Virus record (IMG/VR): IMGVR_UViG_3300008740_000001
Span: 128,001-192,000 of that record
Source: a virus
Taxonomy: Duplodnaviria; Caudoviricetes
Direction: 5' to 3' (one strand)
Length of the DNA: 64,000 bases
Part shown: positions 1,233 through 64,000 of the stretch, piece by piece
How the letters are laid out: each line of letters begins with the position of its first letter
How positions within the stretch are numbered: position 1 is the stretch's first letter
Position numbers and translations under genes: made by a program
The notes under the pieces: generated by a model
What the model was told of the DNA's origin: nothing
Databases searched by the model: none
The model's input: the letters and a program-made list of their open reading frames with translations, nothing else

Positions 1233-2120
1233 TTGTCAAGAAATAATGAAGATCGGTTAACTCCAAAAACAGGAGCTAGCCAAGACGCAGGCACCGAAGT
1301 TCCACCACAGACGACAGCGAAGACGGACTCAACAAATGATGGGGCTTCCTTCGCTTTCGTTACTCCTACGGAGTTTGTGGAGCTTCCGTCGAAAGGTGAC
1401 TACTATCCAGAAGGACACATTTTACATGGCGTCGAAACAGTAGAAATAAGGCATATGACTGCCAAAGACGAAGATATTTTAACATCAAGAACTTTGCTCA
1501 GAAAGGGCGTGGCTCTTGATCGAATGCTTAAGAATATTCTAGTCGACAAGAGAATTAATCTAGACGACATGCTCGTTGGAGACAAGAATGCATTGATCGT
1601 CGCTGCCCGAAAGAGCGGCTACGGCGAGGAGTATGAAACAAAAGTAACTTGTCCCTCATGTGGAGAAGTTAGCCAACATGTGTTCGATCTTTCTACCTTG
1701 GAGGATATACCAGAGGTTCCCGTATGGGATGGTATGCCAAGTGTTACAAGAACGGGCAATAACTTTGACGTAGAACTGCCAAGAAGTGAAGCTGTTGTAC
1801 AGGTTCGCTTGATGACCGGTAAAGATGAAGCAGTCGCTGCTCGCCAAGCCCGCATGGCCAAGAAAGCCGGCTCAGAGCAAGAATTAACATTAACAGGCCA
1901 ATTTAAGCGATTTATCGTTTCGGTAAATGGCGACAGCAGTCCCAGAAACATTGCATATTTTGTGGATCACATGCCCGCAGGAGACTCAAGGTTTTTGAGG
2001 ACTATGTATAAAGCAGTCACACCAAACGTTGATATGGTTATGATGTATGACTGTAACTCTTGCGGATACGCATCAGACATGGAGGTTCCGTTTACAGCGG
2101 ACTTTTTTTGGCCTCAGTAA
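1233..2120 (+). CDS. Baseplate hub assembly / tail assembly chaperone (T4 gp26-like)
   Basis: VELPSKG.YY, MTAKDEDIL and two CxxC motifs; lies between tube and tape measure; TTG start after GAGGTG. Confidence 0.75.
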   Translation: MSRNNEDRLTPKTGASQDAGTEVPPQTTAKTDSTNDGASFAFVTPTEFVELPSKGDYYPEGHILHGVETVEIRHMTAKDEDILTSRTLLRKGVALDRMLKNILVDKRINLDDMLVGDKNALIVAARKSGYGEEYETKVTCPSCGEVSQHVFDLSTLEDIPEVPVWDGMPSVTRTGNNFDVELPRSEAVVQVRLMTGKDEAVAARQARMAKKAGSEQELTLTGQFKRFIVSVNGDSSPRNIAYFVDHMPAGDSRFLRTMYKAVTPNVDMVMMYDCNSCGYASDMEVPFTADFFWPQ

Positions 2121-2775: not shown

Positions 2776-5700
2776 ATGGCAGACGATCCAAAAACCAATG
2801 AAAAATTAACCAGAGCGATTGAGCAGCTTACTAAGCAGGTCGAGCGCAATACGGCTGGTTTTAATCGAGAGTTAAAAAAGTCGGGCCAACTCACTGAGAG
2901 TCTGGGGGATTCGTTTGAGGAAATCGCCAAGAGCCTCAAGAAGAAAAATGATATTCTAGAAAATACAATACTGTCGTTGACTAGAATAGGCGAAATTACT
3001 ACTGTGCAGGATCGTCGCGCCGCATATCGAGCCGAAGCCTTGCAGGCAGAATTGGACAGCATTAATAACCTTCTGGCAGCCGAAGAGAGCAAGCTTGAGG
3101 TAATGATCCAAGAAGGGACGATCTCAGAAGAGGCCCGCAAGAATTATGAGATTAAACTAGAAGCCCAGCGCGAGTCTGTACGGCTTCTTAAGGGTGAAGT
3201 TCAGCAAATGAATGCTGCAGCCAGTGCTGCAGATGATGTTGCTAAAGGTATGCTCGGCATCGCCGGCATTACCGACAAAATGCGCCTAGACGATAAGTTT
3301 GCTAATGCTGTCGGTGAAGCTGGAGGCTTAGTTCCGGTTTTGCAAGCCGTTGGGAAGCGCCTCATGGACAACACCACAAAGACCATGCTTCTTTCGTCGG
3401 CTTCTTCGCATGTTTCAGACGCAATCATGGGCCTCGCCATGGCAGCAATTAAACAAATGGTGTCTCTTGATAACCTCGAAGCGCAGATGCGCCGGATGAC
3501 TGGCGGCAACCACGAGTATTCTGAATCTATTAGAGAGGTATATTTGGCGAACCGGATCAACGGTGTTTCTGCTGAAGATGCAGCTAGCTCAGTTAATACG
3601 CTCTACACCGAAATGAGCACGTTCACACGATATAATAAGGCGACCCGTTCTGAATTAGCGAACACTGGTGCGCTCCTAGAAAGAATGGGTGTTAGCAATG
3701 AAGCGTTTGCAGGCGGCTTAGAGGTATCGACAAAGATGTTGGGCATGACAGCGATTGAATCTCGCGACACTCAGACCGATATTGCCAGATTTGCAACTGA
3801 ATTGGGCGTTGCTCCCGAAACAATGGCTGCTGGCTTCAAGAACGCCGGCCCAATTATGGCGAAATTCTCAATTAACGCCACTAAGGCCTTTAAGAACGTT
3901 GCCAAGGCAGCTAAGGCCACCGGTATCGAAATGGACCGGATCCTCGACTATACACAGCGATTTGACACCTTTGAGGGCGCCGCAGAGCAGGTTGGCTCTC
4001 TGAACGCAATGTTGGGTGGCGATTATATCAACGCTATGGACCTGATGGCCACAGAAGACCCTGCAGAGCGAATGAAAATGATTACAGACGCTATTCATGA
4101 TTCAGGCAAGGCTTTTGAGGAAATGAGCTATTATGAGAAGATCGCAATTGCGGAAGCTTCCGGGTTCCAAGATGTCGGAGAGCTAGCCAAGGCCATGTCT
4201 GGCGATATGGACACCCTAAACACGTCTACTGAAGAGCATGCTTTAACAGAAGAACAGTTGGCCGAAAATGCCAAAATTAATCAATCACTTCAGGAAAAGC
4301 TCGCAAACACAATGGCTGAACTGGCCCCTGCTATAATGGACGTGATGGATGGCCTTAACAAATTCATGGTTCCGATTATGAAGTTCGTCGCCATTGCTGG
4401 CCCGGTGCTGTTCCCAGCACTTTTGATGCTCAAGGGGCTAATGTGGGCAGTTCAGATTAAGACGGCCATGGCCACGGCTGCAACCGAATTCCGAATGATC
4501 GCTCAGCTTAAAGCATGGGCCGTTGACAAGCTAGAAACTGCTCAAATTTGGCTTATGATCAAAGCCGATGAAGCCAAAGCGGCTATAGATCGCATTCGGG
4601 CCGCCACCACCGGCGCTAGTACGGCTGCAACAGCGGCCAACACCGGAGCCCAGAATCTCAGCACAGCCGCTACCATTAGGGGTCGACTCGCCATAATCGG
4701 CCAGAACATTGCCCGGGGTGTAGCGGTCGCGGGTACAGCCGCATGGGCCGTCATTCAGGGAGTTTGGGCTATTGCCACCGGTGCAGGTACTGTTGCAACT
4801 CTTGGCGCCACCGTAGCAACGTGGGGATTGAATACTGCACTTATTACAGCGACCGGTGGTCTGATTTTGATTATTCCACTGATTATCGCCATTGCATACG
4901 GCTTGAAGAAAATGTGGGAACAGGGCGGCATTGCGAAGGGCATTGTTATCGCACTAGGAATCGCTGCTGGAGCCGCATTGGTTGCTGCTACTGGAGGTCT
5001 TATACTTCTGGTCCCACTGGTTATTGGATTATTCTTGGGTCTTAAGAAGGTATGGGATGGGCTTAAGGAAGGTGCGACATGGGCAAAGATTGTGGGCGGA
5101 ATATTACTTTACATTTTCGCAGCCCCCCTTGTTCCTCTTTTCTTGCTTTGGCAGTTCTGGGACAAGATTAAAGCCGGCTTCATTATTGGTGCGAAAGCGA
5201 TTTTCAACGCGCTAACATGGCCATTCCAAAAGGCCTATGATCTTGTAACTTCTATTTGGGATGGGATCACTGGATTCTTTACGTCAAAGATTGATACTAT
5301 CAAAGCTGTGTTTATGTCAATTGCATCGGTGGGCAAAACTATCGCAAACGTCTTTAAGTGGCCGTTCAACGCACTTATTGGAATTATCAACAAGTTTATC
5401 GGTTTTATTGAAGGTGTCTTTACTCTTAAGATTAGGGTGCCCAAGATTCTCCCGGGCCCTTCGAAGTTCCAGATTGGTCCTCCGAATATGGGAAGAATAC
5501 CCAAGTTGGCCAAGGGCACAGAAGCCTTTGCTGGCGGAATGGCCATGGTCGGTGAGAAGGGTCCAGAAATGGTAAACATGCCGGCCGGCACGAGCGTAAC
5601 GCCCGCTGAGAAGACCAAGAAATTTGTTGAGACGCTAGCACAAGTAGCGAACATGACTGCAAAGATCGCAGGCGCCATGGGGGTGCCCGGCGCTTCAGCG

Positions 5701-14928: not shown

Positions 14929-15004
<76 letters not shown>

Positions 15005-58400: not shown

Positions 58401-58485
58401 GGCGCGGTGGTGGAATCGGTATACACAGCAGACTTAAAATCTGCCGCTTTTTAGCTTGCGGGTTCGAGTCCCGCCCGCGCTACCA
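58401..58485 (+). tRNA. tRNA-Leu(TAA)
   Basis: Acceptor GGCGCGG/CCGCGCT, anticodon arm GCAGA-CTTAAAA-TCTGC, long variable arm, T arm GCGGG-TTCGAGT-CCCGC, encoded CCA. Confidence 0.95.
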
Positions 58486-63154: not shown

Positions 63155-63353
63155 TTTGGTGAGAAACTACATGACGGAACAACTGGGTACTGTTGTTGCT
63201 GAGTCGTGTCGCGTTACTGGTGGTAACGATACTGACGAGCCTCATAGTTTTCAAGTGCTGTGGACTACTACGGGCGATTTTGGAGGCGAAGTTGGGTCTA
63301 AAGAATGGACAGGCCCGACGTTTGTGGAGATATTGGATGATGATCGGTCTTGA
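63141..63353 (+). CDS. SH3-like cassette protein
   Basis: MQVGDLV...VEILDDDRS*. Confidence 0.68.
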   Translation: MQVGDLVRNYMTEQLGTVVAESCRVTGGNDTDEPHSFQVLWTTTGDFGGEVGSKEWTGPTFVEILDDDRS

Positions 63354-63404
63354 CATTTACTTGACAAAGAACCTCTTGACAGCGACCGAGGCATATGGTA
63401 TATT
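63350..63404 (+). promoter_or_regulatory. Triple -35 promoter
   Basis: TTGACA(63350), TTGACA(63361), TTGACA(63376)-N17-TATATT. Confidence 0.85.
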
Positions 63405-63428
63405 ATAGGCACAATCAAGGAGATCCCT

Positions 63429-63776
63429 GTGGGTTATAGATCAGAAGTTTTGCTAGCAGTCAGCGCGAAGGCTTACGCGCTGCTTACCACCAAAATCGCC
63501 AAAGGCGGGCCATTCGCGGAGTTGTTTAGTGATGAGTGCACATCGGACCAGCGCGATTATGACAACGATGGCAGCAAGATGTTTCTTTGGGGAAGTGTCA
63601 AGTGGTACGACAGTTATCCAGAGGTCGCTGCCGTCGAGCAGTTTATGTCAACTCTTGATGAAAACGATATGGAAGAAGAATACAAGTTTGTCCGTGTCGG
63701 TGAGGACATGGACGACAACGAAGGACGAGGCTGGGGTTTTGATGACATCTATATCACCCGCTCAATCAACTACTAA
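63429..63776 (+). CDS. Conserved phage hypothetical protein
   Basis: MGYRSEV...WGSVKWY...FVRVGE..DD.E; AAGGAG SD. Confidence 0.65.
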   Translation: MGYRSEVLLAVSAKAYALLTTKIAKGGPFAELFSDECTSDQRDYDNDGSKMFLWGSVKWYDSYPEVAAVEQFMSTLDENDMEEEYKFVRVGEDMDDNEGRGWGFDDIYITRSINY

Positions 63777-63969
63777 TCGAGGCTGTCACGCGAGACACCA
63801 ATAACTATAAGTGAGGGCTCATTGTCTCTAACGAGCCCATGCGTCAGGATAGGCTCACTAACTATGAGCATGGCGCGAACCCGCAAGGGAGTGATAGAGA
63901 GACTAGCGAGGGCAACGCGGCGAGAACAGCGCAGCCTGTGGTGTCCGTGATGGGCAACCTCGATTAGTA
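63771..63969 (+). ncRNA. Candidate ~200-nt structured ncRNA
   Basis: Perfect 12-bp terminal inverted repeat TACTAATCGAGG/CCTCGATTAGTA, nested stems TCACG/CGTGA and GACACCA/TGGTGTC, and three internal hairpins including CCC-GCAA-GGG. Confidence 0.55.
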
Positions 63970-64000
63970 AACTTTATAGCAACCAAAAACAGGATCATAA

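What the first reader, a model, noticed from the sequence alone, without database searches (positions are those of the whole stretch)
63771..63969. Unassigned ~200-nt multibranched structured RNA with a perfect 12-bp closing stem
Seen: TACTAATCGAGG (63771-82) pairs perfectly with CCTCGATTAGTA (63958-69). Nested inside are TCACG/CGTGA (63786-90/63946-50) and GACACCA/TGGTGTC (63794-800/63939-45). The interior holds GGGCTC..GAGCCC (63815-38), GCTCA..TGAGC (63853-69) and CCC-GCAA-GGG (GNRA loop, 63880-89). A possible loop-distal pairing GTCTCT (63824-29) with AGAGAC (63898-903) would form a pseudoknot. TAACTAT and GGGCAAC each occur twice, and a 28-aa ORF (63864-63950, MSMARTRKGVIERLARATRREQRSLWCP) is embedded. 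It does not match the RNase P, tmRNA, 6S or riboswitch consensus motifs I know. Inference: a novel phage ncRNA, possibly acting with a gene just beyond the window.
Basis: partly seen in the sequence, partly recalled or inferred. Interest (0 to 1): 0.7.

Follow-up and report, generated by a model that had tools for sequence, protein, structure and literature searches.

The report
New pseudoknotted RNA of marine phages
The 199-base stretch is a real folded RNA with a pseudoknot, the first described member of an uncatalogued RNA family found in about 17 distinct uncultured marine phage sequences; what it does is still unknown.

Summary
Comparative evidence shows the fold is selected. I collected 17 distinct homologues from IMG/VR and marine metagenome contigs. 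All have an 11-16 bp closing stem, with at least seven different sequences. One pseudoknot position shows four different Watson-Crick pairs. In 15 sequences 91% of cells are paired and 16 of 25 pairs show double changes; 0 of 500 shuffles reach these values. G.U pairs favour the gene (+) strand. There is no Rfam match at E<=10, and no tRNA or tmRNA call at the locus. The 204-kb genome has no reverse transcriptase or Ro60 gene and carries a single copy. In this phage the RNA lies inside an early transcription unit: promoter, 115-aa gene, RNA, 84-aa gene. The stop codon of the 115-aa gene lies inside the closing stem. In relatives the RNA usually follows a 270-aa gene plus a tiny ORF with a strong ribosome-binding site, and precedes a promoter with three TTGACA boxes. 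My best guess is a stable ncRNA cut out of early transcripts through its long stem. That step is inferred; no expression data were found.

The parts
63376..63404 (+). Sigma-70-type promoter (TTGACA, 17 nt, TG-TATATT) with two further TTGACA boxes upstream. It drives the unit that contains the RNA.
   Evidence: L001 2376-2404 = window +61000; sequence.
63429..63776 (+). 115-aa ORF (p115) of unknown function. Its TAA stop (63774-63776) lies inside the 5' arm of P1.
   Evidence: Homologues sit directly upstream of the RNA in L073, and in L102 and L097.
63771..63782 (+). P1, 5' arm of the closing stem (12 bp, perfect).
   Evidence: All 15 members tested have an 11-16 bp contiguous closing stem of differing sequence.
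63786..63800 (+). Inner continuation of the closing helix, 5' strands (TCACG and GACACCA). These pair with 63939-63950.
   Evidence: The innermost 5 bp are in the models, and all 5 pairs show changes on both sides.
63801..63814 (+). J1/2, an A/U-rich joiner (ATAACTATAAG...). It is partly conserved: TAACTA recurs in L055, L073 and L102.
63815..63838 (+). P2 hairpin: GGGCTC (63815-20) pairs with GAGCCC (63833-38). The 12-nt loop has the consensus A-N-N-G-Y-C-N-C-N-A-A-Y.
   Evidence: 100% of cells are paired in 17 sequences and 4 of 6 pairs change on both sides. Stem variants: GGGUUC, GGUUUC, CCUUC, GUGUUC, CCGUUC.
63824..63829 (+). Pseudoknot 5' strand (GTCTCT) inside the P2 loop.
   Evidence: Pairs with 63898-63903. 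Covarying versions: GUCCC/GGGAC, GCCGCG/CGCGGC, GUCACC/GGUGGC, GCCAC/GUGGC, GUCUC/GAGAC, GACUCU/GGAGUC.
63841..63876 (+). Optional P3 domain. Tentatively GCGT (63841-44) pairs with GCGC (63873-76), enclosing the variable hairpin P3a GCTCA/TGAGC (63853-57/63865-69).
   Evidence: P3 was read by eye in relatives and not formally counted: CUGC/GCAG, CUAC/GUAG, GCCUG/CAGGC, CUUGCC/GGCAAG, GCCUU/AAGGC. The domain is absent in L073, L004 and L096. Its register in this phage is uncertain.
63880..63889 (+). P4 hairpin CCC-GCAA-GGG.
   Evidence: Stem covaries. The loop is not conserved (GAAA, GUAA, UUCG, others), so it is unlikely to be a specific contact.
63890..63909 (+). Conserved joiner AGTGATAG, pseudoknot 3' strand AGAGAC (63898-63903), then conserved TAGCGA.
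63910..63937 (+). P5 hairpin: CGC (63916-18) pairs with GCG (63929-31), with an outer GGGC/GCCT. The conserved 10-nt loop is GGCGAGAACA (family consensus GGYRAGRACA).
   Evidence: The domain is replaced by a different 3' hairpin in L102 and L097.
63939..63950 (+). Inner closing helix, 3' strands (TGGTGTC and CGTGA).
63958..63969 (+). P1, 3' arm.
63966..63974 (+). One copy of the strand-specific 9-mer AGTAAACTT, overlapping the last 4 nt of P1. The same GATTAGTAAACTT context follows two other gene ends.
   Evidence: 8 copies on the + strand in 14.9 kb, against 0.07 expected.

Best explanation
Shown: the stretch encodes a conserved, pseudoknotted RNA domain of a family not in Rfam. A long closing helix (P1, 11-16 contiguous bp, extended to about 24-40 bp by nested or flanking pairs) carries a compact core. 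The core contains hairpin P2, whose loop forms a 5-6 bp H-type pseudoknot with a strand 60-95 nt downstream. It also contains an optional P3 domain, a small P4 hairpin, conserved purine-rich joiners and a P5 hairpin with a conserved loop. The RNA is read from the gene strand and sits inside early, sigma-70-type transcription units.

Inferred: the RNA is made as part of polycistronic early transcripts and released through its long double-stranded closing helix, in the way RNase III processes such helices. It then acts as a stable small RNA. Its invariant pseudoknot core has three fixed G-C pairs alternating with free pairs, plus fixed joiner purines, and is the likely binding surface for a protein or other factor early in infection. 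The translated ORF or mini-ORF that ends 0-30 nt upstream would couple ribosome passage to the opening and re-forming of P1.
For: Structure. P1 is present in all 15 members tested, with at least seven different sequences. In 15 sequences 91.2% of cells are paired, 16 of 25 pairs change on both sides, and the covariation score is 0.395 against 0.134 for shuffles (0 of 500 shuffles reach it). Slid controls pair only 31-42%. For P2 plus the pseudoknot in 17 sequences, 93.1% of cells are paired. Pair 42/194 occurs as CG, UA, AU and GC.

Strand. In well-formed pairs there are 8 G.U against 2 A.C. P1 stems also contain G.U pairs.

No known family..

Transcription context. In this phage the order is promoter, p115, RNA, p84, next promoter. 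In the divergent member L096 the order is own promoter, SD plus ATG-ATG-TGA, RNA, U-rich tract, which looks like a self-contained RNA gene.

Long helices. Flanking sequences extend P1 in MFE folds of many members.

Copy number. One copy each in three complete genomes of about 190-204 kb.

Core versus periphery. The core sequence is conserved while the neighbouring genes differ. This fits a function carried by the RNA itself.
Against: No transcript, RNA end or processing site has been observed. Nothing shows RNase III cleavage or a binding partner. One complete related genome (G003, 190 kb) has no copy, and several phages that carry p280 also lack it, so it is dispensable. In this phage the stop codon of p115 lies inside P1, so cleavage within the stem would damage that mRNA. 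The intercistronic position fits a cis-acting role equally well. P5 is replaced in two members, so the conserved P5 loop is not essential. Covariation counts were made on model-fitted alignments of related sequences, which inflates them somewhat.
Confidence: 0.45

Rival explanations
1. A cis-acting intercistronic mRNA element. The folded domain stays in the polycistronic transcript. There it controls mRNA processing, stability or 3'-end formation, or couples translation termination of the upstream ORF or mini-ORF to the fate of the transcript, as an insulator or attenuator placed before the next promoter.
For: It always lies just after a translated ORF: the stop-to-P1 distance runs from inside P1 (the stop overlaps the 5' arm) to about 30 nt. 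In 11 of 15 members there is a dedicated 2-5 codon mini-ORF with a strong SD. Most members are followed directly by the next promoter. A/U-rich or U-rich tracts follow P1 in L055, L097 and L096. In this phage it sits 32 nt before the next start codon.
Against: A stability element or terminator would not need an invariant pseudoknot core, conserved joiners and conserved loops. No canonical terminator is predicted at the element in this phage. U-tracts are inconsistent across members. Upstream and downstream genes differ between lineages.
Confidence: 0.25
2. A new class of self-cleaving ribozyme that cuts early polycistronic transcripts between cistrons.
For: The element is a compact pseudoknotted core with invariant unpaired nucleotides, of modest size and in an intergenic phage location. 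It shares the hairpin-loop-to-3'-strand pseudoknot topology of pistol ribozymes (from my knowledge of that class).
Against: No hit to any Rfam ribozyme model at E<=10. No candidate cleavage site was identified. The long, perfect P1 is not typical of small ribozymes.
Confidence: 0.1
3. A ligand-binding, riboswitch-like aptamer.
For: A multi-helix junction with a loop-to-joiner pseudoknot, and conservation concentrated in joiners, resembles known aptamers such as SAM-I and SAM-II (from my knowledge of those classes).
Against: There is no expression platform. In most members P1 is followed by a promoter, not a terminator or a sequestered SD. P1 is too long and stable to depend on a ligand. Downstream genes are not functionally coherent. 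There is no Rfam match.
Confidence: 0.07
4. A DNA-level element (small mobile element of the MITE type with inverted ends, a recombination or origin site, or a chance palindrome) rather than an RNA.
For: There are terminal inverted repeats. Both strands fold equally well in silico. The element occupies different gene neighbourhoods in different phages. In L073 the 3' arm coincides with a TTGACA box.
Against: It is single copy in each genome. The non-nested pseudoknot covaries. G.U pairs are tolerated on one strand only. Orientation relative to the genes is constant.
Confidence: 0.03
5. A retron msr-msd non-coding RNA.
For: It is a ~200-nt structured RNA bounded by perfect inverted repeats, like the a1/a2 repeats of retrons.
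Against: There is no reverse transcriptase (PF00078) anywhere in the complete 204-kb genome, and the control genomes scored correctly. None of the neighbours in relatives is an RT.
Confidence: 0.01

Closest known systems
Orphan structured phage RNAs (GOLLD RF02032, ROOL, and the unnamed candidate structured RNAs predicted from IMG/VR by Fremin et al. 2023, PMC10690425)
   Same: Phage-borne, strongly structured, supported by covariation, function unknown, and found mainly in metagenomic viral contigs.
   Different: Much smaller (about 115-200 nt). No sequence or model similarity to GOLLD or ROOL. Not next to a tRNA. I could not check whether it is among the 10,006 unnamed candidates, because the supplements are not held.
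Retron msr-msd RNA
   Same: About 200 nt, closed by perfectly complementary terminal repeats.
   Different: No reverse transcriptase in the genome. The core is an H-type pseudoknot, not msr/msd hairpins.
Bacterial and phage Y RNAs (YrlA) bound by Ro60/Rsr
   Same: The 5' and 3' ends form a long stem that carries a structured module, and some are phage-encoded.
   Different: No TROVE/Ro60 gene in the genome. No tRNA-like T-arm. No Rfam hit.
RNase III processing helices (T7 early mRNA sites, rRNA precursor stems)
   Same: Long, imperfect double-stranded helices at intercistronic positions of early phage transcripts. In rRNA precursors the helix encloses the RNA that is released.
   Different: Here the helix encloses a small conserved pseudoknot domain. 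Cleavage has not been shown.
Pseudoknotted aptamers and small ribozymes (SAM-I and SAM-II riboswitches, pistol ribozyme RF02679)
   Same: A hairpin loop pairs with a downstream strand, and conserved nucleotides are concentrated in joiners.
   Different: No model match. No expression platform. Different conserved nucleotides. A very long P1.

Membership tests
Any Rfam 15 family (4227 models) | Score at or above the family's gathering threshold, or at least a suggestive E-value | tested here: not met
   The whole window at gathering thresholds gives only two tRNAs elsewhere. In 63300-64000 at E<=10 there are only two chance hits outside the element. Six homologue loci at E<=5 give nothing.
tRNA / tmRNA | ARAGORN or Rfam detection of a cloverleaf or a tag-coding tmRNA | tested here: not met
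   only tRNA-Met at 14929 and tRNA-Leu at 58401.
Retron ncRNA | Adjacent or genome-encoded reverse transcriptase | tested here: not met
   PF00078 is absent from the complete genome, and the controls were positive.
Retron ncRNA | Flanking inverted repeats (a1/a2) | tested here: met
   A 12-bp perfect repeat. This feature alone is not specific to retrons.
Y RNA / YrlA | Ro60 (TROVE) partner gene and a tRNA-like module | tested here: not met
   PF05731 is absent. There is no Rfam match.
Riboswitch | Aptamer followed by an expression platform (terminator or SD sequestration) upstream of a coherent gene set | tested here: not met
   In most members P1 is followed by a promoter. No terminator is called at the element. 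Downstream genes vary.
Riboswitch | Specific ligand binding | not testable with these tools
   Needs in-line probing or ITC.
Self-cleaving ribozymes (hammerhead, twister, twister-sister, pistol, hatchet, HDV-like) | Match to a class consensus | tested here: not met
   Searches give no hits.
Self-cleaving ribozymes (new class) | Site-specific self-scission | not testable with these tools
   Needs an in vitro cleavage assay.
Intrinsic terminator | GC-rich stem with a short loop, followed immediately by a U-tract | tested here: not met
   One search finds none at L001 2771-2980. The tail in this phage is AACTTTATAGC. U-rich tails occur only in some relatives.
   The window element scores 126 bits with R1, which was built from it and three others. 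It scores 87.6 bits with R2. All helices form.

The most novel reading that the evidence does not exclude
The element founds a new functional class of phage RNA. Its compact H-type pseudoknot core, with alternating invariant G-C pairs and fixed purine joiners, would be an active site: either a new self-cleaving ribozyme or an aptamer that captures a host or phage factor early in infection. Its folding would be gated by ribosomes terminating on the conserved mini-ORF just upstream.
Probability: 0.2. Interest if true: 0.85.

Novelty: categorically new. Interest (0 to 1): 0.62.

Why it matters
Few phage-encoded structured RNAs have known functions, and those that do have often revealed new biology. 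Examples I know of are tRNA-like decoys, anti-CRISPR RNAs, CBASS-triggering RNAs and the GOLLD/ROOL cages. This family has a pseudoknot with unusually clear covariation. It sits in the early, host-takeover region of a clade of large uncultured marine phages, and it is small enough (a 115-170 nt core) for direct biochemistry and structure determination. The recurring strong-SD mini-ORF directly upstream suggests a link between translation and RNA folding that can be tested with simple reporters. At the least, it provides a new covariance model for annotating marine viromes.

Tried and rejected
Searches that found nothing:
- BLAST of the element and of a relative against 50,697 GenBank phage records gave no match. 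The p280 protein also has no match there.
- The first two pattern scans of viral contigs found only one new member. A pattern scan of prokaryote genomes found one chance hit, which the model rejected.
- No RNA holder was listed for this stretch. Three metatranscriptome runs of the same study laid no contig on it. This says nothing about expression.

Neighbouring proteins:
- The p280 protein, the usual upstream neighbour, has no Pfam or PHROG family. Its atlas clusters are viral hypothetical proteins. An AlphaFold model (pLDDT 71, helical N-terminal 190 residues) has no PDB match at E<=0.001.
- The zinc-knuckle protein is only a lead. It has a CX2CX4HX4C motif by eye, and its atlas scores are below 0.9.

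Ideas considered and dropped:
- The P5 loop as a CsrA GGA site: this phage and L073 have GAA instead.
- P4 as a GNRA tetraloop contact: L073 has UUCG.
- The P1 3' arm as an anti-SD mimic (GCCUCCUUA): true only in one subclade.
- Stop-codon read-through into the RNA: the p115 frame stays open for 58 codons after TAA here, but not in L073.
- The 28-aa ORF and the duplicated heptamers: not conserved.

Limits:
- The MFE fold of the single sequence pairs the pseudoknot strands as a nested helix and drops P2. Only the alignment shows that both helices exist.
- The supplements of Fremin et al. 2023 are not held, so overlap with their catalogue could not be checked.

Full report
**Setting.** The window is bases 128001-192000 of a 203,859-bp IMG/VR virus record with direct terminal repeats, estimated 100% complete. 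It is a phage with a tape-measure protein, a DnaB-like helicase, a DnaE-type polymerase, ribonucleotide reductase and GroEL. It has no close cultured relative: the polymerase is at most 31% identical to any GenBank phage. DNA holders of the stretch are marine or seawater metagenomes.

**Observation.** The 199-nt stretch folds at -77.4 kcal/mol against -59.5 for dinucleotide shuffles (z -4.45). The reverse strand folds equally well. A 12-bp inverted repeat within 200 nt is not rare by itself; the window holds three. The single sequence therefore does not prove an RNA. The element is single copy in the genome.

**Not a known family.**
- Rfam 15 at gathering thresholds finds only two tRNAs elsewhere in the window.
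- A permissive scan of 63300-64000 at E<=10 finds nothing on the element.
- Six homologue loci give nothing at E<=5.
- ARAGORN finds no tRNA or tmRNA here.
- The genome has no reverse transcriptase and no TROVE/Ro60 gene. This rules out a retron and argues against a Y RNA.

**Homologues.**
- nhmmer against loci fetched through the flanking proteins gave a first weak hit, L055.
- Motif scans of IMG/VR added L063, L053/L054, and the short variants L004 and L073.
- Covariance model R1 plus one scan of marine metagenome contigs added L075, L076, L080, L082, L085, L088, L090 and L092.
- Model R2 found a very divergent copy in a second complete 190-kb genome (L096).
- R2 also found two copies in phages whose p280 protein is closest to this one (L097, L102).
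- The total is 17 distinct sequences, all from marine viral or metagenomic contigs.
- One complete related genome (G003) and four more distant p280-bearing contigs have no copy.

**Architecture.**
- P1 is a contiguous 11-16 bp closing stem in all 15 members tested, with at least seven unrelated sequences. Nested pairs (this phage) or flanking pairs (relatives) extend it to roughly 24-40 bp in MFE folds.
- P2 is a 6-bp hairpin. The three pairs next to the loop are almost invariant (UUC/GAA), while the outer three covary freely: GGG/CCC, GGU/ACC, GUG/CAC, CCG/CGG, CC/GG.
- The 12-nt P2 loop pairs with a strand 60-95 nt downstream. I found seven complementary versions (listed under parts). Pair 42/194 occurs as C-G (8 sequences), U-A (5), A-U (2) and G-C (1). 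Pairs 39/197, 41/195 and 43/192 never change.
- An optional P3 domain with a variable inner hairpin lies between P2 and the pseudoknot 3' strand. It is absent in L073, L004 and L096. Its stem differs compensatorily among relatives by eye, but I did not count it formally.
- A small P4 hairpin also lies there. Its stem covaries and its loop is not conserved.
- Conserved purine-rich joiners flank the pseudoknot 3' strand.
- P5 carries a conserved loop, GGYRAGRACA, in 15 members. L097 and L102 have a different hairpin in its place.

**Statistics.** On the 15-sequence model alignment, 91.2% of cells are paired and 16 of 25 pairs change on both sides. The covariation score is 0.395 against 0.134 for shuffles (0 of 500 shuffles reach it). 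With the 3' partners slid by 1-3 columns only 31-42% pair (similar). Two caveats apply. The sequences are related, and the alignments were fitted to the model.

**Strand.** In well-formed pairs there are 8 G.U against 2 A.C, and P1 stems contain G.U pairs. This favours the + strand, which is the strand of all neighbouring genes.

**Context in this phage.** Strong promoters (TTGACA, 17 nt, TG-TATATT, each with two extra TTGACA boxes upstream) lie at L001 2376 and L001 3279. Between them lie p115, the RNA and an 84-aa ORF. The TAA stop of p115 is inside the 5' arm of P1. The 3' arm overlaps one copy of a strand-specific 9-mer, AGTAAACTT. That 9-mer is 8-fold repeated in 15 kb, mostly at gene ends.

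**Context in relatives.**
- In ten relatives the RNA follows the 270-aa gene p280. After it come a three-box promoter, a small gene, a protein with a CX2CX4HX4C zinc-knuckle motif, and an AAA_5 ATPase with a DUF2201 partner.
- In L073, L097 and L102 it follows a p115 homologue, as in this phage.
- In L096 it has its own promoter and a U-rich tail.
- In 11 of 15 members a strong SD plus a 2-5 codon mini-ORF of non-conserved sequence lies between the upstream gene and P1. Everywhere, a translated ORF ends between inside P1 and about 30 nt upstream of it.

**Interpretation.** The RNA core is what is conserved, and the gene neighbours change. This argues that the function resides in the RNA, not in a fixed protein partner next door. 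The invariant pseudoknot core, on top of a long double-stranded stem within early polycistronic transcripts, is most simply read as a small RNA released by a double-strand-specific nuclease, which then acts through its core. That reading is inference (confidence 0.45). The same facts fit a cis-acting intercistronic element coupled to translation termination (0.25). A new ribozyme (0.10) or aptamer (0.07) cannot be excluded. A DNA-level element (0.03) or a retron (0.01) is unlikely.

**Expression.** No expression data could be obtained.

**Novelty.** No family in Rfam, GenBank phage records or the searchable literature matches. A bulk catalogue of 10,006 unnamed viral candidate RNAs exists (PMC10690425), but its supplements are not held, so overlap could not be checked. 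An earlier first-reader note in this scan flagged the same stretch from an overlapping window. No look-alike was noted on other genomes.

Noticed in passing
L076 ~190-240, L075 ~2350-2400, L053 ~4585-4620, L096 ~1640-1665 (minus strand), and other family loci: A strong SD (GGAGGAAG-like) followed by ATG, 1-4 further codons and a stop lies just upstream of the RNA in 11 of 15 members. The peptides are not conserved (MED, MQD, MRQ, MLR, MRES, MEE, MPGFG, MEDSG, MEYSG, MM). The stop-to-P1 spacing is 5-22 nt.
   Followed up: partly
window 63966-63974 and seven other sites in L001 (199, 1061, 4058, 4862, 5594, 6634, 10667): The strand-specific 9-mer AGTAAACTT is 8-fold repeated in 14.9 kb (0.07 expected), mostly at gene ends. 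Three copies share GATTAGTAAACTT. One copy overlaps the 3' end of the RNA's closing stem.
   Followed up: partly
window 63340-63404; L001 1319, 2376, 3279, 4131; downstream of the RNA in most relatives: Early promoters carry three TTGACA-like boxes ahead of one extended -10. The same design follows the RNA in distant relatives (CTTGACATTCTCCTGACA...). In L073 the first box is itself the 3' arm of P1.
   Followed up: partly
L001 1354-2353 and 3314-4108; L004 1403-2377; L063 6132-6552: Tandem arrays of small paralogous genes (about 60-90 aa, starting MKVGDLV... and ending ...EVISESR) surround the RNA in all these phages.
   Followed up: no
L085 2604-2759 and L084 1-151: One natural variant, seen in two samples, has GGAGGC instead of GGGAC in the pseudoknot 3' strand. 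This leaves one mismatch in the pseudoknot. Its close relative L082 keeps the canonical strand.
   Followed up: no
The same is not true in L073, so this is probably chance.
   Followed up: partly
window 63273-63286 / 63487-63500: A second 14-nt inverted repeat (93% complementary) brackets the promoter and the start of p115.
   Followed up: no
L001 5765-10301; L097, L098, L101, L102: A conserved module comprises a protein with two CX2CX4HX4C-type zinc-knuckle motifs, the 270-aa p280 protein, an AAA_5 (MoxR/CobS-like) ATPase, and a DUF2201_N/DUF2201 protein. p280 has at least 248 marine metagenomic homologues and no known fold.
   Followed up: partly
L097 2113-2247: A 44-codon ORF with a hydrophobic centre lies between the p115 homologue and the RNA in this relative.
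   Followed up: no
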